Below are positions 1 to 62,377 of a stretch of 64,000 bases of DNA, piece by piece. The position numbers and the translations under genes are program-made. The DNA is from Escherichia phage BYEP02: the sequence record OR757454.1. One strand, 5' to 3'. How positions within the stretch are numbered: position 1 is the first letter of the stretch; each line of letters opens with the position of its first letter. The notes beneath the pieces are model-generated. The model was not told the origin of the DNA, ran no database searches, and saw nothing but the letters and a program-made list of their open reading frames with translations.

Positions 1-2
1 AG

Positions 3-341
3 CCAGGTTGTCAAATTGGATGGGCTCATGATACTTTGCTTGAAGCAGTAGATGCTGCTCAAAAATTAGGATATAAATATGTAGAGATTGTTCAACTACC
101 ATCAGGAACAGTTATTACTCTTGAAGAGTTCAATAACATTAAACCAAACTTTTTACTTTTTGCAGGTGATAATTATTATCCTCGTGGTGGATATGCTGAT
201 TTAATCGCGAAAGCCGCTACTGAAGATGAACTTCGTGATATTATCAAAGAAAATGAAAACAAACCGATGTATGGTTCTAATCGCTTTGATTGGTGGCAAA
301 TTGTAAATGCCCATACTCATACTATTGTTGATGAAGGTTGA
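3..341 (+). CDS. hypothetical protein, 5' partial (frame open to window edge)
   Basis: Frame open from position 3, stop TGA 339-341; next gene starts 3 nt later. Confidence 0.5.
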   Translation, partial: PGCQIGWAHDTLLEAVDAAQKLGYKYVEIVQLPSGTVITLEEFNNIKPNFLLFAGDNYYPRGGYADLIAKAATEDELRDIIKENENKPMYGSNRFDWWQIVNAHTHTIVDEG

Positions 342-343
342 TA

Positions 344-631
344 ATGATTCTTTATGCTAAAGTATCATCCATTGAAAATGGATATAAATATGATCAAGAA
401 GCAGTTAAAGCCTTGATTGATGATTATGGCATTTTAACATGTTTTGAAGTTGAAAAGGTTTATGTTGACCGTTCATCTTCTCAAGTTAAATTAGTGAAGG
501 AAGACCGTAAATTTAATACAGTAAATTTTGATTTCTTTATTGAAACAGAAAAAGGTCCTCTTGAATATGATATTTTCAAGAATCCTTTGGGTCTTGAATG
601 CATCGTAAATATGTATTATCATAAATGGTAA
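344..631 (+). CDS. hypothetical protein (95 aa)
   Basis: ATG 344 just after upstream stop; ORF to TAA 629-631. Confidence 0.5.
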   Translation: MILYAKVSSIENGYKYDQEAVKALIDDYGILTCFEVEKVYVDRSSSQVKLVKEDRKFNTVNFDFFIETEKGPLEYDIFKNPLGLECIVNMYYHKW

Positions 632-782
632 ATATGCTTTAAGAATTATTTGTTATTATTAACTCATATCGCACTGATTAATACCCTCTATCATCAAGGG
701 TTCTTTAAATATGCTTTAAGAATTATTTGTTATTATTAACTCATACCGCACTGATTAATACCCTCTATCATCAAGGGTTCTT
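629..782. repeat. 77-bp tandem duplication (629-705 / 706-782), 1 mismatch, intergenic
   Basis: Two adjacent near-identical 77-nt units read directly. Confidence 0.9.
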
Positions 783-818
783 GTTTGAGAGCCTTTGTTA
801 ATAATTGGGAATCATATT

Positions 819-1427
819 ATGGATACTAAATTAGCTGAAATTTTTGAAGGAAAACATCCAAATTTTAGTACAGGAAAGCTGAAAGATAAAATAATAAAAG
901 AAAATATTTTTCCATATGAGTGTGCAATTTGTAAAATTTCAAAATGGCAAAATAAGCATATTGTTCTGCAATTAGACCATATTGACGGAAATAACAAAAA
1001 TCATCTTAAATCAAATTTAAGATTATTATGTCCAAATTGCCATTCGCAAACTGATACTTTTGCTGGTAAAAATATTAAAAATAATAAAAAGCGTTATAAT
1101 GTTAGTGATGAAGAAATTTTAAACGCATTATTAAATTCTGCTACTATATCATCTGCAATTACTTCATTAGGTTTAAGTAAAGGCGGAAACTATAAAAGAT
1201 TCATTAAAATTGCTAATGATAATAAATTATATCATTTACTGGTAAATATTAATGAAAACATTTTAACTGATGAAATTTACGAAGAATTAGTTAAAATTGA
1301 TTATTCTAAATTTGGATGGGTTAGTAAAGCTGCTAAAATAATAGGTATAAGCCCACAAAAAGCTAGAAAATGGATAGAACGAAAGTGTCCAGAATTGATA
1401 GAACAATCTTTTTCACGTAATAAATAA
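819..1427 (+). CDS. HNH-family homing-type endonuclease
   Basis: HNH core in translation (LDHIDGNNKNH...LRLLCPNCH); C-terminal helix-rich segment; lies immediately 5' of tRNA cluster. Confidence 0.7.
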   Translation: MDTKLAEIFEGKHPNFSTGKLKDKIIKENIFPYECAICKISKWQNKHIVLQLDHIDGNNKNHLKSNLRLLCPNCHSQTDTFAGKNIKNNKKRYNVSDEEILNALLNSATISSAITSLGLSKGGNYKRFIKIANDNKLYHLLVNINENILTDEIYEELVKIDYSKFGWVSKAAKIIGISPQKARKWIERKCPELIEQSFSRNK

Positions 1428-1433
1428 TATAGA

Positions 1434-1520
1434 GCGAGAATGGTCAAATTGGTAAAGGCACAGCACTTAAAATGCTGCGGAATGATTTCCTTGTGGGTTC
1501 GAGTCCCACTTCTCGCACCA
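1434..1520 (+). tRNA. tRNA-Leu (anticodon TAA), long variable arm, CCA encoded
   Basis: Acceptor gcgagaa/ttctcgc, anticodon loop ctTAAaa, T-arm gggttcgagtccc. Confidence 0.85.
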
Positions 1521-1525
1521 AATTT

Positions 1526-1752
<227 letters not shown>

Positions 1753-1762
1753 TATGGAGACT

Positions 1763-1852
1763 GGAGGCGTGGCAGAGTGGTTTAATGCACCGGTCTTGAA
1801 AACCGGCAGTCGCTCCGGCGACTCATAGGTTCAAATCCTATCGCCTCCGCCA
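1763..1852 (+). tRNA. tRNA-Ser (anticodon TGA), class II long variable arm
   Basis: Acceptor ggaggcg/cgcctcc, anticodon loop ctTGAaa. Confidence 0.85.
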
Positions 1853-1962
1853 GTTTTGCTGATTTAGCTCAGTAGGTAGAGCACAGTCGCTCCGGCGACT
1901 CATAGGTTCAAATCCTATCGCCTCCGCCAGTTTTTGCTGATTTAGCTCAGTAGGTAGAGCAC
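1808..1962. repeat. 77/78-bp tandem duplication (1808-1884 / 1885-1962) across the Ser-Thr junction, one 1-nt indel
   Basis: 3' part of tRNA-Ser plus spacer plus 5' part of tRNA-Thr repeated. Confidence 0.9.
1858..1929 (+). pseudogene. chimeric tRNA-like element: tRNA-Thr 5' half fused to tRNA-Ser 3' half
   Basis: Thr acceptor/D-arm (gctgatttagctcag...) followed by Ser variable arm/T-arm/acceptor at the duplication junction. Confidence 0.7.
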
Positions 1963-2011
1963 CTCACTTGTAATGAGGACGTCGGCGGTTCGATTCCGTC
2001 AATCAGCACCA
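1936..2011 (+). tRNA. tRNA-Thr (anticodon TGT)
   Basis: Acceptor gctgatt/aatcagc, anticodon loop ctTGTaa, CCA encoded. Confidence 0.85.
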
Positions 2012-2012
2012 A

Positions 2013-2087
2013 GGCCCTGTAGCTGGAAGGTTCAAGCAAGCGACTCATAATCGCCAGATGGTGGTTCAATTCCACCCAGGGCCACCA
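2013..2087 (+). tRNA. tRNA-Ile/Met-type (anticodon CAT)
   Basis: Acceptor ggccctg/cagggcc, anticodon loop ctCATaa; T4 tRNA-Ile uses a CAU anticodon. Confidence 0.8.
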
Positions 2088-2096
2088 AATTAATTT

Positions 2097-2183
2097 GGGG
2101 AGTTATCCCGTAGAGGTAGCGGTGTGGACTGTAAATTCATTGTCATTGCGACTCGGGTGGTTCGACTCCACCACTCCCCACCA
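2097..2183 (+). tRNA. tRNA-Tyr (anticodon GTA), class II
   Basis: Acceptor ggggagt/actcccc, loop ctGTAaa, long variable arm, T-arm ggtggttcgactccacc. Confidence 0.7.
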
Positions 2184-2187
2184 ATTT

Positions 2188-2262
2188 GGATGTGTAGCTC
2201 AATGGCAGAGCGATCGCCTGTTAAGCGATTGGTTATAGGTTCGAATCCTATCACGTCCGCCA
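2188..2262 (+). tRNA. tRNA-Asn (anticodon GTT)
   Basis: Acceptor ggatgtg/cacgtcc, anticodon loop ctGTTaa, T-arm ataggttcgaatcctat. Confidence 0.75.
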
Positions 2263-2376
2263 AATTTGTGACAACTGTCACATTAATATCTACTTGACGC
2301 GATTATAGGGGTTGAACTGATCACTCTTCTCTTAATTTCGTGTGAAGACATCTTGATTGTTGGAGTAGGTATTAAT

Positions 2377-2452
2377 GTGGCCGTAGTTCAGTTGGTAGAA
2401 CTCGAGATTGTGATTCTCGTAGTCATGGGTTCGACTCCCATCGGTCACCCCA
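2377..2452 (+). tRNA. tRNA-His (anticodon GTG)
   Basis: Acceptor gtggccg/cggtcac, anticodon loop ttGTGat. Confidence 0.75.
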
Positions 2453-2456
2453 ATTA

Positions 2457-2532
2457 CGGGGCATAGCTCAGAAGGAAGAGCAAGGACCTTCTAAGTCCTA
2501 GGTCGTAGGTTCGATCCCTACTGCCTCGACCA
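2457..2532 (+). tRNA. tRNA-Arg (anticodon TCT)
   Basis: Acceptor cggggca/tgcctcg, anticodon loop ctTCTaa. Confidence 0.8.
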
Positions 2533-2550
2533 ATTATAAGTGAGGAAAAT

Positions 2551-2901
2551 ATGAAAGGTAATGTTTATTTAGTAGTTCATGATTTAACATTTTACTTCAA
2601 TGAATATGAAAAACATATCTCATTTCGTGAAATTAATTTACTTTATCAACATGCGGATTATATTTATATTCAAAACGAATTTGGTCATTGGCAATTTCTC
2701 AAAAATCGTTCATTTGGCTTAGATGGTTACGAATACTTTGAACGTAAAGACCTTTTAGATAAAATTCCGTTATCTACGCAATATCAAAATCACAAATCTT
2801 TATATAAATGCCGTCCAATTCGAAATGTTGAATCCGCGTATGAAGCAATTGATTTATGGCGTGAACGCCGTAAACAGATTGATGCTTTAAAAGAATATTA
2901 A
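2551..2901 (+). CDS. hypothetical protein (116 aa)
   Basis: ATG with GAGGA RBS directly after tRNA-Arg. Confidence 0.5.
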   Translation: MKGNVYLVVHDLTFYFNEYEKHISFREINLLYQHADYIYIQNEFGHWQFLKNRSFGLDGYEYFERKDLLDKIPLSTQYQNHKSLYKCRPIRNVESAYEAIDLWRERRKQIDALKEY

Positions 2902-2904
2902 GAA

Positions 2905-3160
2905 ACCGGGTCGCTACCGGTAAGTCGTCGGACTGATGTTCCCTGAGTAAGGAATTGCGTTAATAATCTTTGCGTTTATTGATGCCCTCTTACATCACAG
3001 CAGAAACGGCGCACCGAATTATCGATTCGAGGAAATATCTTTGCCGTAAGCCGAGTAGCGTTTTTGACGGAACGTTCGGATATGGTCGAGATATGGCCTT
3101 TTAAAAATATTGAGTAGCGTCAACTGCTTAATAACCGGGTTCGAATCCCGGCGTTTCGTA
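2905..3160 (+). ncRNA. possible small stable RNA(s) distal to tRNA cluster
   Basis: Non-coding GC-rich stretch with tRNA T-arm-like element (ccgggttcgaatcccgg); position matches where T4 has small stable RNAs. Confidence 0.3.
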
Positions 3161-3210
3161 CAAACACTTGCCTTAGCAGGTGGAACCCCGACAAGGTTGC
3201 CGCAAGGCTT

Positions 3211-3239
3211 AGCCCCGACCGAAAGGTTGGGGCTTTTTG
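3211..3239 (+). terminator. intrinsic terminator, 10-bp stem, GAAA loop, T-tract
   Basis: agccccgacc-gaaa-ggttggggct followed by ttttt. Confidence 0.7.
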
Positions 3240-3291
3240 GTATAACACTTGCCTTAGCAGGTGGAACCCCGACAAGGTTGCCGCAAGGCTT

Positions 3292-3320
3292 AGCCCCAGC
3301 CGAAAGGTTGGGGCTTTTTA
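3292..3320 (+). terminator. intrinsic terminator (second repeat unit)
   Basis: agccccagcc-gaaa-ggttggggct followed by tttt. Confidence 0.7.
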
Positions 3321-3321
3321 G

Positions 3322-3329
3322 TATAAATA
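3322..3329 (+). promoter_or_regulatory. T4-type late promoter TATAAATA
   Basis: Exact TATAAATA ~37 nt upstream of ATG 3366. Confidence 0.55.
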
Positions 3330-3365
3330 AGTATATTAAATCTACAAATTAAAACAGGAAATAAG

Positions 3366-3839
3366 ATGAAATCATATGCTCAATTTTTAAATGAAGCGGT
3401 GTTAAATGAAGCATCTAGCACTGAAATTCAAGCTGTTGCAAAAGCTGCCATTGCCGCGGGTAAATATTCCTATAAAGATGCTTCCGATGAATCACGATTC
3501 CAATTTGCTCGTGATATGAAAGCCGAAGGATTTACAGGGAATGCAGTTAGTATGGCTTGGAAAAGTTTAGTTGCTACTGGAGCTGCTTTTGCAAAGGCTT
3601 CAGGTAAACCTGCTCCTAAGGCTGACCCTAAAGCAGCACAAGAAAAAAATATTGCTAAAGGAATTATCTCTAGGTATGAAGCAATTCTTAAAGAACTTTT
3701 GATAATTAAGACCGAAGGCCAGAAACTTGCGCGTGCTTATAGTTTCAAAGATAATCCACATGCTCATGACCTAGAGTATGTTGAAGACCTCCAAAAAATC
3801 ATCAAAGACCGCATTTGGTCTGCTAAACAAATCAAATAA
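3366..3839 (+). CDS. internal head protein (IP-like) with N-terminal capsid targeting sequence
   Basis: N-terminus MKSYAQFLNEAVLNEASSTE resembles T4 IP targeting sequences; flanked by repeated terminators. Confidence 0.65.
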   Translation: MKSYAQFLNEAVLNEASSTEIQAVAKAAIAAGKYSYKDASDESRFQFARDMKAEGFTGNAVSMAWKSLVATGAAFAKASGKPAPKADPKAAQEKNIAKGIISRYEAILKELLIIKTEGQKLARAYSFKDNPHAHDLEYVEDLQKIIKDRIWSAKQIK

Positions 3840-3846
3840 CATTCTT

Positions 3847-3875
3847 AGCCCCGACCAAAAGGTTGGGGCTTTTTG
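3847..3875 (+). terminator. intrinsic terminator, third copy of the agcccc...ggggct hairpin
   Basis: agccccgacc-aaaa-ggttggggct followed by tttt. Confidence 0.7.
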
Positions 3876-4007
3876 GTATCTAGGCCTTTCCGGGCCTCTC
3901 TAGGCATCATTTAGTTTATACCCTTTATAATATATTATCCTACCTTTTAATTGCCCCTCCTGACCCTAGAATTCCCTAAAACTTTTTAAAAATTTTTTCA
4001 CAAAACT

Positions 4008-4037
4008 GTTTACATCCCTGTTCTTCCATGGTACTAT
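4008..4037 (+). promoter_or_regulatory. T4 early-type promoter (GTTTAC, 18 nt, TACTAT)
   Basis: Upstream A/T tract, -35 gtttac, -10 tactat; same architecture recurs across the window. Confidence 0.6.
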
Positions 4038-4080
4038 ACAACTATCAACTACTGATACAGAAAATAACTTGGAGAATGAA

Positions 4081-4421
4081 ATGGATAATTACGGCGAACT
4101 GTTCAACTTCTTTATGAAATGCGTTTCAGAAGATTTCGGTCGTACAGTGAATGATATTAAAGTCATCGGTCCTGACCATCCAACTTCTTTATGAAATGTG
4201 TTTCAGAAGATTTTGGTCGTACAGTGAATGATATTAAAGTTATCGGTCCTGATCATCCGATGTTTGAAACTTACGCAGTAATGGGTAATGAAGATGGTCA
4301 GTGGTATACTGTAAAGGTTGTGATTAACATGTTCACTGCTGAAGGTTATGTTAAACTGTCTTCTAAAGTTTACCATGATAACGATGAAATCGCAGAAGAA
4401 TATTTCAATAATATGAAATAA
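4081..4421 (+). CDS. hypothetical small protein, frameshifted by a 77-bp duplication
   Basis: ATG 4081; copy 1 gives premature stop; intact sub-ORF 4191-4421. Confidence 0.5.
4104..4257. repeat. 77-bp tandem duplication (4104-4180 / 4181-4257), 4 C/T mismatches
   Basis: Read directly; offset 77. Confidence 0.9.
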
Positions 4422-4451
4422 GTTTACACAGGCTCATGATTGAGATATTAT
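4422..4451 (+). promoter_or_regulatory. T4 early-type promoter (GTTTAC, 18 nt, TATTAT)
   Basis: Motif spacing as at other early promoters. Confidence 0.55.
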
Positions 4452-4477
4452 GAGCCTATAACTTTGAGGAGAACATT

Positions 4478-4813
4478 ATGAAACGTAACTTTAGTAAAGC
4501 TTTTTGTAATAGAAATTATTATCCTGAAGAGCTTTTTGAATCTAAGGACTTTAAAGAGTTTAACGAACGTTCTCAAAACATGCCTGTACAATGGGTGTTA
4601 GATTATGCCAAACGTATCTTTGAAGGTGTACGTTGGTTCAGTCCTGATGATGAAGCCCCATATTTTCAAAGGGCATGGTCTATAGTCAATCAAGCTTATA
4701 TTGATGCTTTAGAAAATATTAATATTATGGATGATGATGATGCTTTGTTAATCATCGATGAGTCTATTAATAGTAGTATCGATAAATTTATTGATGAATT
4801 GGACGAAGAATAA
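4478..4813 (+). CDS. hypothetical acidic protein (111 aa)
   Basis: ORF with RBS; acidic C-terminus. Confidence 0.5.
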   Translation: MKRNFSKAFCNRNYYPEELFESKDFKEFNERSQNMPVQWVLDYAKRIFEGVRWFSPDDEAPYFQRAWSIVNQAYIDALENINIMDDDDALLIIDESINSSIDKFIDELDEE

Positions 4814-4843
4814 GTTTACAAACTCTTGGGAGTAGAGTATAAT
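4814..4843 (+). promoter_or_regulatory. T4 early-type promoter (GTTTAC, 18 nt, TATAAT)
   Basis: Consensus -35/-10. Confidence 0.55.
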
Positions 4844-4888
4844 ACTCCCACGGATTATAAAAACCCTTAATTAACTAAAGGAAATGCT

Positions 4889-5482
4889 ATGAACATGCTG
4901 AAGAAAATTGTTGAGTTTATTCGCACTAAACTTGGTTCTGCTATGGCTAAAAATTTATCTGTTGAAGAACAGTATACTGCTGCGGCAGCAAAACTACTTG
5001 ATAAGATTAAAGATCTAAAAACTGCTTCTGTTAAATCTATTAATGAAGAAAAACGTATTCGTGAACTTATTGTCGAAAAGAATCGACAGGCCGAATCAAA
5101 AGAGCGTGAAATTCGCAAGCTTCTTTCTGAAGGTCAAGATGTAACAATGCATGCTAAACTCGGCTTGCTATATCGTCGAACAGCTGAACAGTTGACTACT
5201 AAAGCTGATGGTTATGCTGAAATGCGAATTGAAATCGCCAAGAAAGTAGTTGAATTGGATGATGCTCGCCAAGAACTTGCAGTTAAATTGGAATATATCC
5301 GTGAAACTCGTGCAGCAAATGCCCTTGGAATTAGTACTGCTGATGATGTAGTTGAAATTGCAGCGCTAACTAAAGTTGATATTGAAGATACTCTCGCCCG
5401 AGTTGAAACCTTTAATGGTAATATTTCTGGGGTTGAAACTACCTCTGCCGATGTTCAGGAATATATTAATTCTCTGAAATAA
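4889..5482 (+). CDS. coiled-coil protein (197 aa), loosely PspA/IM30-like
   Basis: Heptad-rich, charged helical sequence; assignment by composition only. Confidence 0.5.
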
Positions 5483-6482: not shown

Positions 6483-6922
6483 ATGCAAAAGCCAAAACTA
6501 AATAAAGTCAAATATTCGCTTCCTGAGTCATTTTTAATTTTTGCTGTGGCGTTGGCTGTAGCTCTTGCTGGTAGTCTTATTGGATTAATGATTGACTGTA
6601 TTATTTTAAACATCGATGGCACAGTAATTATAACAGATGTTTGGAGTGAACTTCGTTTTACTATAGCGATTTCATTATTTTCATTCTTTGGTACCATGTT
6701 ATATTTTCATTATGATAATTTTAAAATAAATTGGCAAAGAAAAAAGGATTACAAAATACAATTAAAAGAATATAATAATATTTTCATTATGATAATTTTA
6801 AAATAAATTGGCAAAGAAAAAAGGATTACAAAATACAATTAAAAGAATATAATAACTACATGTCTTATATTGAAAATGAATCAATGGAAGAGTTTGTGAG
6901 TGATTGTAGGAAAATTAAATGA
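6483..6922 (+). CDS. membrane protein, frameshifted by a 77-bp duplication
   Basis: Frame from ATG 6483 restored after removing 77 nt (121 codons). Confidence 0.5.
6704..6857. repeat. 77-bp tandem duplication (6704-6780 / 6781-6857), 1 mismatch
   Basis: Read directly. Confidence 0.9.
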
Positions 6923-61837: not shown

Positions 61838-62377
61838 AGTAGCAAAATTATATTCAATAGAATTTATGTCTAAAGAAGGTAAATCAGTAAATACACTTGA
61901 TAAAAAGTGCTCATTAATTATTCCTATTATTCAATAGAATTTATGTCCAAAGAAGGTAAATCAGTAAATACACTTGATAAAAATTGCTCGTTAATTATTC
62001 CTTTAGCAGAAAATCCGGATATTTTAATTAAAGATATAAAAGAAAGAAAATATCCAGAAAATGTTATTCTAATTATAAAGCATACTGAAGATATTTTGCA
62101 GAATACTGATTCACCATTTTCTTCTTCTGAAGCTTTAACTATTAAAGGCTATAAAAGAGCTCATGAATATGGTCTTTTTGACCTGTTTGAAGACGATAAA
62201 GTTAAATTAGCGAGTCAACCTTTTAAAAGTAAAACATTCATTATTGAAGATATTAAAGATATAAATGCATTTGTTAGGATGGTCTGGGCTCATTTTGATG
62301 TTGGACTACGCTGGAGAATGTCCGAAGAAGAAAGAAAGATTGCTGAAGCTAATCGTCATTTTGGTTTTTATCGCTAG
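61830..62377 (+). CDS. hypothetical protein, frameshifted by a 77-bp duplication
   Basis: 156 aa after removing 77 nt. Confidence 0.5.
61849..62002. repeat. 77-bp tandem duplication (about 61849-61925 / 61926-62002), 3-4 mismatches
   Basis: Read directly. Confidence 0.85.

What the first reader, a model, noticed from the sequence alone, without database searches (positions are those of the whole stretch)
819..1427. HNH endonuclease gene directly upstream of the tRNA cluster
The ORF has a clear HNH core (DHIDGNNKNH ... LCPNCH) and a helical C-terminal half, typical of free-standing phage homing endonucleases. It sits where T4 has tRNA-Gln, which is absent here. A mobile endonuclease replacing or flanking a tRNA gene would explain the different tRNA set.
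Basis: partly seen in the sequence, partly recalled or inferred. Interest (0 to 1): 0.5.

Follow-up and report, generated by a model that had tools for sequence, protein, structure and literature searches.

The report
HNH endonuclease gene replacing phage tRNA-Gln
A selfish-DNA-type nuclease gene, already annotated in about 60 T4-like phage genomes but never studied, sits exactly where phage T4 keeps its glutamine tRNA gene; it is a real but fairly ordinary case of homing endonucleases reshaping phage tRNA clusters.

Summary
Window 819-1427 (+) is an intact 202-aa ORF with a classical zinc-bound HNH core and a helical C-terminal half made of two helix-turn-helix-like modules. The window is a Tequatrovirus, 99% identical to phage slur03.

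Alignment with T4, T6 and slur07 shows that 616 bp (815-1430) replace nucleotides 10-71 of tRNA-Gln. Nine bases of the tRNA's 5' end (806-814) and two of its 3' end (1431-1432) remain. tRNA-Leu starts 6 nt after the stop codon.

The same gene is in 63 phage records, with the same left junction in the four aligned. About 430 records keep tRNA-Gln. Its closest full-length relative outside T4-like phages is T5 HegA, which also lies in a tRNA cluster. Of 80 metagenomic viral relatives, 75 lie beside or inside tRNA arrays.

It is most likely a free-standing homing endonuclease that spreads by cutting the tRNA-Gln allele. That activity is inferred, not shown.

The gene explains only the missing tRNA-Gln. 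The other differences from T4 (Met/Tyr/Asn/His, no segB) match the published T2-type arrangement, His aside.

The window also carries about 33 artefactual tandem duplications (31 of 77 bp, 2 of 81 bp), two of which create fake tRNA fragments next to the finding.

Verdict: new member of a known kind, modest interest.

The parts
338..631 (+). trna.2 homologue, the conserved gene that forms the left flank of the locus.
   Evidence: ORF. It corresponds to T4 trna.2. Homology with T4, T6 and slur03 is uninterrupted in alignment A2.
632..659 (+). MotA-type (T4 middle) promoter-like site: TGCTTTA at 635-641, a 12-nt spacer, then TATTAT at 654-659. An artefactual second copy lies at 709-736.
   Evidence: Read directly from the sequence against the established MotA-box consensus. 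The same 27 nt are annotated 'promoter' in phage Lutter. The site is conserved in T4 and T6 upstream of tRNA-Gln. Function here is inferred.
629..782 (.). Artefactual 77-bp tandem duplication just upstream of the gene. It is not biological.
   Evidence: TRF finds period 77, 2.0 copies. It is absent from slur03, Lutter, CM8, T4 and T6. It is one of about 33 such duplications spaced along the window.
806..814 (+). Remnant of the 5' acceptor end of tRNA-Gln: TGGGAATCA here, TGGGAATTA in T4. Its GGGA may now serve as the Shine-Dalgarno-like element 10 nt before the ATG.
   Evidence: Alignments. Homology to T4, T6 and slur07 ends after these 9 nt. The ribosome-binding role is inferred.
815..1430 (+). 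Inserted cassette of 616 bp that replaces nucleotides 10-71 of tRNA-Gln.
   Evidence: Left and right junctions were defined against T4 and slur07. The left junction was also checked against T6 and is identical in window, slur03, Lutter and CM8.
819..1427 (+). HNH endonuclease ORF, 202 aa.
   Evidence: dN/dS is 0.17 against a 68%-identical relative.
906..1058 (+). HNH (beta-beta-alpha-metal) nuclease core, residues about 30-80. It contains C35, C38, H54, N66, C71, C74 and H75.
1098..1406 (+). Helical C-terminal half. It has two helix-turn-helix-like modules (residues about 94-134 and 150-196), presumed to bind DNA.
1431..1432 (+). Possible 2-nt remnant (AG) of the 3' end of tRNA-Gln.
   Evidence: T4 reads ...CCCAG-C-GCGAG, the window reads ...ATAG-A-GCGAG. 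Two bases could match by chance.
1434..1520 (+). tRNA-Leu(UAA), the right flank. It starts 6 nt after the HNH stop codon.
   Evidence: ARAGORN and Rfam. The first 25 bases shown are identical to T4 tRNA-Leu.

Best explanation
This is a free-standing HNH homing endonuclease gene of the T5 HegA type. In an ancestral Tequatrovirus it replaced the tRNA-Gln gene at the head of the tRNA cluster.

Shown:
- The protein has an intact zinc-bound HNH catalytic core followed by two helix-turn-helix-like modules.
- It is under purifying selection.
- Its gene plus 3-4 flanking bases on each side replaces 62 nt of tRNA-Gln, leaving only the tRNA's first 9 nt (and possibly its last 2).
- The allele is present in about one in eight sequenced relatives, with the same left junction in all four aligned.

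Inferred:
- The gene is transcribed from the conserved middle-type promoter that otherwise drives the tRNA precursor. It would therefore be the first element of that transcript, translated from a weak ribosome-binding site supplied by the tRNA-Gln remnant.
- RNase P processing of tRNA-Leu, 6 nt after the stop codon, would trim the message. Similar processing has been proposed to lower expression of T4 SegB and the T5 F-Tfl enzymes (PMC2330249).
- In a mixed infection with a phage carrying the tRNA-Gln allele, the enzyme nicks or cuts that allele in or next to tRNA-Gln or the Gln/Leu junction. That site is destroyed in its own genome.
- Recombinational repair then copies the HNH allele in and erases tRNA-Gln.
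For: HNH identity:
- Full-length match to phrog_14736, E 2.5e-123.
- C35, C38, H54, N66, C71, C74 and H75 invariant in 57 relatives.

Exact replacement of tRNA-Gln:
-.
- The remnant lying inside the tRNA gives the direction of the event: tRNA-Gln was there first.

Sporadic distribution:
- 63 records carry the gene at 97-100% nt identity, one copy each.
- 496 records cover at least 80% of the T4-type junction query; the HNH-carrying genomes that appear among the listed rows score 79-81% because they lack the tRNA-Gln part, so about 430 are estimated to keep tRNA-Gln.
- The HNH allele occurs in different flanking contexts. CM8 has an extra upstream ORF and a GIY-YIG gene in the tRNA-Pro slot, yet has the same left junction.

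Functional constraint:
- dN/dS 0.17 against a 68%-identical relative.
- 5 of the 6 differences from slur03 are synonymous.

Family context:
- 35% identity over 170 aa to T5 HegA (E 8e-23), which lies in the T5 tRNA region.
- More divergent T4-like contigs carry 58-68%-identical homologues at the syntenic place. One lies 14 nt after tRNA-Gln.
- 75 of 80 IMG/VR relatives lie within 3 kb of tRNA or tmRNA genes, mostly inside tRNA arrays.

Precedent:
- SegB homing in the same T4 cluster (PMC2330249).
- T5 F-Tfl enzymes (Akulenko 2004, cited in PMC2330249).

Promoter.
Against: - No cleavage site, nicking activity or preferential inheritance has been shown for this protein or for any close relative that I could find in the held literature.
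- The Pfam HNH score is below the gathering threshold.
- There is no significant sequence match in the PDB and no significant full-length Foldseek match.
- The target is unknown. In contig L007 a 68% relative coexists with tRNA-Gln directly upstream, so tRNA-Gln itself need not be the recognition site.
- Identical junctions are also what simple vertical descent plus ordinary recombination would give.
- I did not build a genome phylogeny to count independent transfers.
Confidence: 0.7

Rival explanations
1. It is a domesticated or mutualistic nuclease. The enzyme is kept because its breaks in the tRNA region benefit the phage. Possible benefits are exclusion of competitors' markers, or promotion of recombination and segmental amplification of tRNA genes to escape tRNA-targeting host defences, as reported for SegB in T6. 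This largely overlaps with the main explanation and differs only in what maintains the gene.
For: - There is purifying selection over deep divergence (dN/dS 0.17).
- The gene keeps a syntenic position at the head of the tRNA cluster in T4-like phages that share only 58-68% identity.
- Relatives are embedded almost universally in tRNA arrays.
- SegB-driven amplification of tRNA-Tyr against Septu has been shown (PMC13096335).
Against: - Only about 1 in 8 Tequatrovirus records carry it, which fits a selfish element better than a beneficial one.
- Its arrival cost the phage a tRNA gene.
- Nothing in the data shows amplification. The tandem duplications in this window are assembly artefacts.
Confidence: 0.15
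2. It is a decaying or catalytically dead relic of a past invasion, persisting only as a passenger or as a DNA-binding protein.
For: - The Pfam HNH score is sub-threshold.
- The ribosome-binding site is weak and borrowed.
- Many phage homing endonuclease genes are defunct; I-TevIII in T4 is one example (PMC2790892).
Against: - All seven catalytic and zinc-binding residues are intact and invariant.
- All 63 records align over the full 609-bp gene at 97-100% identity.
- dN/dS is 0.17.
- The predicted fold is confident.
Confidence: 0.07
3. It is an HNH nuclease with a different job, not aimed at rival phage genomes. Examples would be a terminase-associated packaging HNH, a nuclease acting on host DNA, or a factor acting on tRNA precursors.
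For: HNH domains are functionally diverse (PMC5714182). Weak NCBIfam similarity to the IscB and ZorE HNH domains shows only the generic fold.
Against: - T4-type packaging does not use an HNH partner (general knowledge of T4 biology).
- The gene lies far from the terminase genes.
- It is absent from most close relatives, so it cannot be part of a core process.
- The added HTH-like modules and the insertion polymorphism are typical of homing endonucleases.
Confidence: 0.05

Closest known systems
Phage T5 HegA (T5.075 / ORF070). It is probably the enzyme published as F-TflIV, one of the T5 site-specific endonucleases encoded in the tRNA gene region (Akulenko et al. 2004, cited in PMC2330249 and PMC5714182).
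   Same: - It is the only full-length relative found outside T4-like phages: 35% identity over residues 16-184, E 8e-23.
- The order is the same: an HNH core followed by a C-terminal HTH-type region.
- It lies inside a phage tRNA cluster, directly downstream of a tRNA gene.
- Some GenBank records already label the window's protein 'H-N-H endonuclease F-TflIV'.
   Different: - T5 HegA has about 55 extra N-terminal residues and lacks the first HTH-like module (gaps).
- It lies between tRNAs rather than in place of one.
- The equation HegA = F-TflIV is my inference. It rests on T5 having only this one homologue and on F-TflIV being placed in the PF01844 group (PMC5714182). I could not read the original paper.
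Phage T4 SegB, a GIY-YIG homing endonuclease in the same tRNA cluster (PMC2330249).
   Same: - It is a free-standing endonuclease gene inside the Tequatrovirus tRNA cluster.
- It is present in some relatives and absent in others.
- Its stop codon abuts the next tRNA, so tRNA processing trims the message.
- Its presence goes with a changed tRNA set.
   Different: - It belongs to an unrelated nuclease family (GIY-YIG rather than HNH).
- It occupies a different slot (Ile/Arg rather than Gln).
- SegB's cleavage sites (TpsiC motif of tRNA genes) and its near-100% homing are shown experimentally. Nothing has been tested for this HNH.
T4 MobA-E, I-TevIII and Hef: the known HNH-type endonucleases of T-even phages (PMC2988022; Hef from Sandegren et al. 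2005, known to me only from the reference list of PMC13096335).
   Same: They share the His-Me finger superfamily and the free-standing lifestyle in T4-like genomes.
   Different: There is no detectable sequence relationship. tblastn at E <= 1e-3 hit only 84 Escherichia-phage records, whereas Tequatrovirus records number several hundred. If those genomes carry Mob genes, as T4 does, Mob genes were not matched. The domain make-up also differs: one paper likens the Mob class to HNH_3 plus a C-terminal zinc finger (PMC10448857).
HNH endonuclease genes embedded in tRNA arrays of mycobacteriophages, plasmids and mycobacteria (PMC5966550, which cites Pope et al. 2014; PMC6582537).
   Same: The general phenomenon is the same. 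HNH genes are the most widespread coding genes inside tRNA arrays and have been proposed to generate tRNA repertoire diversity.
   Different: Those reports are descriptive and concern actinobacterial systems. I did not test sequence relatedness to them, although tblastn does hit HNH genes next to tRNAs in Gordonia phages.

Membership tests
HNH / His-Me finger nucleases (Pfam PF01844 type) | A beta-beta-alpha-metal core with a catalytic His, the Asn, and a metal-binding His, often with a Cys4 zinc site. | tested here: met
HNH / His-Me finger nucleases (Pfam PF01844 type) | The score reaches Pfam's gathering threshold for PF01844. | tested here: not met
   The score is 17.3 bits against a cut-off of 21.4. 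23 of 57 aligned relatives hit PF01844 at E <= 1e-3. This is a matter of sensitivity and does not contradict membership.
PHROG 14736 (HNH endonuclease) | A full-length match to the family profile. | tested here: met
   E 2.5e-123, residues 1-202 on profile positions 1-202 of 202.
Free-standing homing endonuclease (functional class) | The gene is present in some closely related genomes and absent in others at the same locus, with conserved flanks. | tested here: met
   63 records carry it and an estimated 430 have the uninterrupted tRNA-Gln allele. The left junction is identical in four carriers with different surroundings.
Free-standing homing endonuclease (functional class) | A nuclease domain is joined to a separate sequence-reading DNA-binding domain. 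| tested here: inconclusive
Free-standing homing endonuclease (functional class) | Site-specific cleavage or nicking of the allele that lacks the gene. | not testable with these tools
   This needs purified protein and DNA of the T4 or T2 tRNA-Gln/Leu region.
Free-standing homing endonuclease (functional class) | Super-Mendelian inheritance in mixed infection, dependent on an intact gene. | not testable with these tools
   This needs phage crosses, as were done for SegB (PMC2330249).
T5 HegA / F-TflIV-like HNH endonucleases of tRNA regions | Homology beyond the HNH core, including the C-terminal HTH region. | tested here: met
   BLASTP gives 35% identity over residues 16-184, E 8e-23. The alignment includes the C-terminal segment 'SK(F/Y)(G/S)W(V/I)..A(A/S)K..G(I/L)S'.
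T5 HegA / F-TflIV-like HNH endonucleases of tRNA regions | The gene is encoded within a phage tRNA gene cluster. | tested here: met
   In the window it ends 6 nt upstream of tRNA-Leu. T5 hegA lies directly after tRNA-Ile2.
T4 Mob family (MobA-E) | Detectable sequence similarity to Mob proteins. | tested here: not met
   tblastn at E <= 1e-3 matched only 84 Escherichia-phage records, against several hundred Tequatrovirus records in the collection. This test is indirect and assumes those genomes carry Mob genes as T4 does; I made no direct pairwise comparison. There is no HNH_3 hit for this protein.
Seg family (GIY-YIG) | A GIY-YIG motif or domain. | tested here: not met
   No GIY-YIG hit in Pfam, PHROGs or NCBIfam.

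The most novel reading that the evidence does not exclude
The window's gene belongs to a widespread clade of HNH endonucleases that specialise on phage tRNA arrays. The clade would read a feature of tRNA genes themselves, preferentially the 5' boundary of long-arm (class II) tRNA genes such as tRNA-Leu(UAA) and tRNA-Tyr. That would let it hop between unrelated phages and drive gain, loss and possibly amplification of phage tRNA genes, and so influence escape from tRNA-targeting host defences.

Evidence so far:
- 75 of 80 IMG/VR relatives lie within 3 kb of tRNA or tmRNA genes, mostly inside tRNA arrays.
- In 23 of the first 60 loci a tRNA starts within 22 nt (one overlaps) of the end of the HNH match.
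- 15 of 21 non-redundant cases are Leu, Tyr or Ser, against a background of about 21% (binomial 1e-6; shared ancestry not controlled).
- The window's own gene abuts tRNA-Leu(UAA).
Probability: 0.3. Interest if true: 0.55.

Novelty: new member of a known kind. Interest (0 to 1): 0.3.

Why it matters
The gene gives a base-level example of how a selfish nuclease gene can delete a phage tRNA gene. It adds a second, unrelated endonuclease family (HNH, beside the GIY-YIG SegB) to the forces that remodel the classic T-even tRNA cluster.

A third case was seen in passing: a GIY-YIG gene sits in the tRNA-Pro slot of CM8 and slur07. The cluster therefore looks like a hotspot where endonuclease genes swap in for individual tRNAs. 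This matters for explaining why tRNA sets differ between near-identical phages.

After the recent finding that SegB-driven amplification of tRNA genes defeats a tRNA-cleaving defence (PMC13096335), it also matters for how phages tune tRNA supply against host immunity.

The enzyme could be a new site-specific nicking or cutting enzyme. The general principle is already established, however, and the gene is already annotated in public genomes.

Tried and rejected
- **PDB sequence search:** only chance-level hits (E >= 0.34).
- **Generic sigma-70 promoter and terminator scan:** no more hits than in shuffled sequence.
- **T4 late promoter TATAAATA:** none near the gene.
- **RNA fold of the 5' leader:** the GGG of the ribosome-binding site pairs with CCC at 761-763, but z is only -2.3. 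I do not build on it.
- **Tandem repeat upstream (629-782) and partial tRNAs at about 1612-1686 and 1853-1935:** I considered whether these were recombination scars left by the endonuclease. Rejected: they belong to a window-wide series of 77-bp duplications that is absent from every related genome.
- **Direction of the event:** I considered that T4 might have gained tRNA-Gln in place of the HNH gene. Rejected: the homology breakpoint lies 9 nt inside the tRNA.
- **Literature searches:** no paper found on this particular gene. I could not confirm from held papers that T5 HegA is F-TflIV.
- **Local analysis limits:** most fetched loci were not available to the Python sandbox. The distances to tRNAs were therefore read by hand.

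Full report
**1. What the window is**

The first 3.4 kb match Tequatrovirus genomes. The best hits are Escherichia phages slur03, slur08 and slur14 at 99.2-99.3% over the whole stretch. In slur03 the gene order is dNMP kinase, 57A, 57B, ipI, trna.4, trna.3, trna.2, 'HNH endonuclease', ten tRNAs, then the e.8/e.7 side. The window starts inside trna.3.

**2.

The ORF at 819-1427 (+) encodes 202 aa, from ATG 819 to TAA 1425-1427.
- It matches phrog_14736 'HNH endonuclease' end to end (E 2.5e-123).
- Pfam HNH is only sub-threshold (17.3 against 21.4 bits).
- In an alignment with 56 database relatives, C35, C38, W43, H54, G57, N66, L67, C71, P72, N73, C74, H75 and T78 are invariant. These include the H-N-H triad and a Cys4 zinc site.
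- 23 of the 57 sequences hit PF01844.
- An AlphaFold2 model built on that alignment is confident per domain (mean pLDDT 88, pTM 0.47).
- Sequence search of the PDB and full-length Foldseek gave nothing significant.

Residues 81-195 are all helical. They form two conserved modules, about 94-134 and 150-196. HTH-family matches in this protein are weak, but a few relatives have significant ones.

**3. It sits in the tRNA-Gln slot, with base-level precision**

ARAGORN finds Leu, Gly, Pro, Ser, Thr, Met(CAU), Tyr, Asn, His and Arg in the window, and no Gln.

In T4 the order is trna.2, a 97-nt spacer, tRNA-Gln, one base, then tRNA-Leu. The junctions are as follows.
- **Left junction.** T4, T6 and slur07 read ...TTGTTAATAATTGGGAATTAGCCAAG..., where the tRNA begins at TGGGAAT. 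The window, slur03, Lutter and CM8 read ...TTGTTAATAATTGGGAAT(C/T)A-TATTATGGAT.... The first 9 nt of tRNA-Gln therefore survive at window 806-814. The ATG follows 4 nt later.
- **Right junction.** T4 reads ...TTCCCAG-C-GCGAGAATGG. The window reads ...AATATAG-A-GCGAGAATGG.

So 616 bp (815-1430) replace nt 10-71 of tRNA-Gln. The 609-bp ORF accounts for all but 7 of those bases. Because the homology breakpoint lies inside the tRNA, tRNA-Gln was the earlier state and the HNH allele is derived.

slur03 has ten tRNAs at this locus and none is Gln. CM8 has six and none is Gln.

**4. Distribution**

- The ORF's DNA is found in 63 phage records, all T4-like coliphage, Shigella, Salmonella or Yersinia phages. 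Identity is 97-100% and there is one copy per record.
- 496 records cover at least 80% of the T4-type junction query. The HNH carriers that appear among the listed rows score 79-81% because they lack the Gln part. That leaves roughly 430 records with tRNA-Gln.
- Carriers differ in their surroundings. CM8 has an extra 516-bp ORF between trna.2 and the promoter region. It also has a 609-bp GIY-YIG-type gene (TIGR01453, E 2e-12, below the family cut-off) between tRNA-Gly and tRNA-Ser, in the place of tRNA-Pro, and it lacks Tyr, Asn and His. Its left junction is nevertheless the same.

One insertion event followed by spread through recombination fits these facts. A homing mechanism would produce this pattern, but so could ordinary recombination.

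**5. The protein is maintained by selection**

Against slur03 there are 6 nucleotide differences, 5 of them synonymous. Against a 68%-identical metagenomic relative (P0002), dN/dS is 0.17 with dS near saturation.

**6. Relatives elsewhere**

- The large protein database holds 5,504 relatives at E <= 1e-5, most sharing only the HNH part.
- Three closer ones (P0002 at 68%, P0003 and P0004 at 58%) lie in T4-like contigs at the syntenic place, after the gp2, gp3, gp1, 57A and 57B homologues and small trna-region ORFs (a trna.2 homologue only in L007), at the head of the tRNA genes.
- In L007 the gene starts 14 nt after an intact tRNA-Gln and has its own strong Shine-Dalgarno sequence. Adjacency to tRNA-Gln is therefore older than its replacement.
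- Among isolate genomes, the only full-length relatives outside these are T5-like phages. T5 HegA (T5.075) shows 35% identity over 170 aa, E 8e-23, and lies in the T5 tRNA region directly after tRNA-Ile2.
[quoted passage not shown] F-TflIV is classified with PF01844-type HNH proteins (PMC5714182). Two GenBank records already call the window's protein 'F-TflIV'. I infer that HegA is F-TflIV but could not verify it.
- Edwardsiella phage PEi20 has an unannotated, intact 156-aa ORF with the HNH core at its C-terminal end, between tRNA-Leu and tRNA-Met.

**7. A clade tied to tRNA arrays**

I fetched the 80 best relatives in IMG/VR, using clade-specific motifs.
- 75 have tRNA or tmRNA genes within 3 kb. 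Most sit inside dense, co-oriented arrays of up to 24 tRNAs.
- In 23 of the first 60 loci a tRNA starts within 22 nt (one overlaps) of the end of the HNH match.
- After collapsing near-identical loci, 15 of 21 of these tRNAs are Leu (mostly UAA), Tyr or Ser. Those three types make up about 21% of tRNAs in a sample of the same arrays (binomial 1e-6).
- This test does not control for shared ancestry, and I read the distances by hand.
- The window's gene also abuts tRNA-Leu(UAA).
- The tRNA-Leu genes downstream share only ordinary tRNA conservation, so no target can be read from them.

That HNH genes are the commonest coding genes in tRNA arrays, and may diversify tRNA sets, has been noted before (PMC5966550, citing Pope 2014; PMC6582537).

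**8. Expression (inferred)**

- Directly after the trna.2 stop codon lies TGCTTTA (635-641), a 12-nt spacer and TATTAT (654-659). This matches the T4 MotA-dependent middle promoter consensus. The element is conserved in T4 and T6 upstream of tRNA-Gln and is annotated as a promoter in phage Lutter.
- No late promoter motif lies near the gene. The generic sigma-70 scan is uninformative.
- The HNH ORF would therefore be the first element of the tRNA precursor transcript.
- RNase P processing of tRNA-Leu would cut the message 6 nt after the stop codon. Comparable processing has been proposed to lower expression of SegB and the T5 enzymes (PMC2330249).
- The only Shine-Dalgarno-like element is the GGGA of the tRNA-Gln remnant.

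**9. Mechanism and rivals**

The best explanation is a free-standing HNH homing endonuclease. It would nick or cut the tRNA-Gln allele of a co-infecting relative in or near the replaced segment, and be copied in during repair. The carrier genome is immune because the site is gone.

The nuclease fold, the replacement, the polymorphism and the selective constraint are shown. The activity, the target and the homing are inferred.

Rivals:
- a nuclease kept for a benefit to the phage, such as marker exclusion or SegB-like amplification of tRNA genes (PMC13096335);
- a dead relic, which the intact residues and dN/dS argue against;
- an unrelated HNH role, which the gene's absence from most relatives argues against.

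**10.

It is right about the HNH domain, the helical DNA-binding-type half, the free-standing mobile character and the tRNA-Gln slot.

It overreaches in explaining 'the different tRNA set'. The Met(CAU), Tyr and Asn genes and the absence of segB match the arrangement published for T2L, RB1 and RB3, in which SegB homing converts the cluster to the T4 form (PMC2330249). T6 has another variant. Only the loss of Gln is due to this gene.

**11. A caveat about the window itself**

Tandem Repeats Finder reports about 33 two-copy tandem duplications, 31 of period 77 and two of period 81. They occur every 1-3 kb along all 64 kb. Many lie inside coding regions, where 77 bp would shift the reading frame. 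The four in the first 3.4 kb are absent from slur03, and the first is also absent from Lutter, CM8, T4 and T6.

They are assembly artefacts. The pattern is consistent with k=77 graph segments joined without trimming the overlaps. The slightly imperfect copies, and identity to slur03 that changes from segment to segment, suggest the path was stitched through a mix of related strains.

Near the finding they create three things:
- a false repeat at 629-782;
- a false partial tRNA at about 1612-1686, which Rfam scores as a truncated tRNA;
- a false Thr/Ser chimera at about 1853-1935.

None lies inside the HNH ORF. Both junctions lie within one unduplicated segment (706-1673), and the same gene between trna.2 and tRNA-Leu is present in complete isolate genomes.

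**12. Verdict**

This is a real, intact gene that is annotated in public genomes but uncharacterised. It is a new member of a known kind: homing-type endonucleases in phage tRNA clusters. It shows a neat gene-for-tRNA replacement. Interest is modest (0.3). The clade-wide link to tRNA arrays, and possibly to class II tRNA genes, is the part most worth following up.

Noticed in passing
whole window; e.g. 629-782, 1598-1750, 1807-1962, 3163-3326, 4104-4258, 6701-6855 ... 61851-62002: About 33 two-copy tandem duplications (31 of period 77, two of period 81) occur every 1-3 kb along the window, many inside genes. The four in the first 3.4 kb are absent from slur03, and the first is also absent from four other related genomes. 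They look like assembly artefacts from untrimmed k=77 overlaps, possibly from a path through mixed strains. Any repeat, frameshift or pseudogene finding in this window should be checked against this.
   Followed up: partly
window 1612-1686 and 1853-1935: There is an apparent partial tRNA-Pro-like gene (Rfam tRNA, 49.6 bits, model positions 8-63) and a tRNA-Thr-5'/tRNA-Ser-3' chimera. Both are by-products of the 77-bp duplications, not recombination scars. slur03 has neither.
   Followed up: yes
L004 (Shigella phage CM8) 4017-4625; also L003 (slur07) from 1566: A 609-bp GIY-YIG-type endonuclease gene (TIGR01453, E 2e-12, below the family cut-off; annotated 'SegB-like') sits between tRNA-Gly and tRNA-Ser, in the place of tRNA-Pro. 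This is a second endonuclease-for-tRNA swap in the same cluster. It happens to be the same length as the HNH gene.
   Followed up: partly
L003 (slur07) 678-1193; L004 (CM8) 2575-3090: A 516-bp ORF with no NCBIfam hit is inserted between trna.2 and the promoter/tRNA-Gln region in some Tequatroviruses. It occurs both with and without the HNH gene. This is a third variable element at the locus.
   Followed up: no
L013-L092 (IMG/VR loci), match at about 3001-3250: 75 of 80 relatives of this HNH lie within 3 kb of tRNA or tmRNA genes, usually inside dense co-oriented tRNA arrays. In 23 of the first 60 loci a tRNA starts within 22 nt (one overlaps) of the end of the match. These tRNAs are strongly biased to Leu(UAA), Tyr and Ser (15 of 21 non-redundant, against about 21% background). 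Shared ancestry was not controlled.
   Followed up: partly
L007 3911-4603 (Logan contig ERR11438051_264): In a more distant T4-like phage, the 68%-identical HNH homologue starts 14 nt after an intact tRNA-Gln and has its own strong ribosome-binding site. This may be the arrangement that preceded the loss of tRNA-Gln.
   Followed up: partly
L012 (Edwardsiella phage PEi20, AP014714) 1606-2076: An intact 156-aa ORF with the HNH core at its C-terminal end lies between tRNA-Leu and tRNA-Met and overlaps the start of tRNA-Met. The record does not annotate it.
   Followed up: partly
window 2097-2183: ARAGORN calls tRNA-Tyr(GTA) here. The Rfam tRNA model did not report it at the gathering threshold in the 1-5000 scan, although it reported the other nine.
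   Followed up: no
window 2013-2087: The CAU-anticodon tRNA ('Met') shares its first 12 nt with T4 tRNA-Ile(CAU) and then diverges completely. Whether it reads AUG or AUA (after lysidine modification) cannot be told from the sequence.
   Followed up: no
window 3110-3352: The 80-aa ORF with an internal repeat (LALAGGTPTRLPQGLAP...) is spurious. It runs through the 81-bp artefactual duplication in a non-coding stretch where slur03 annotates no gene.
   Followed up: partly
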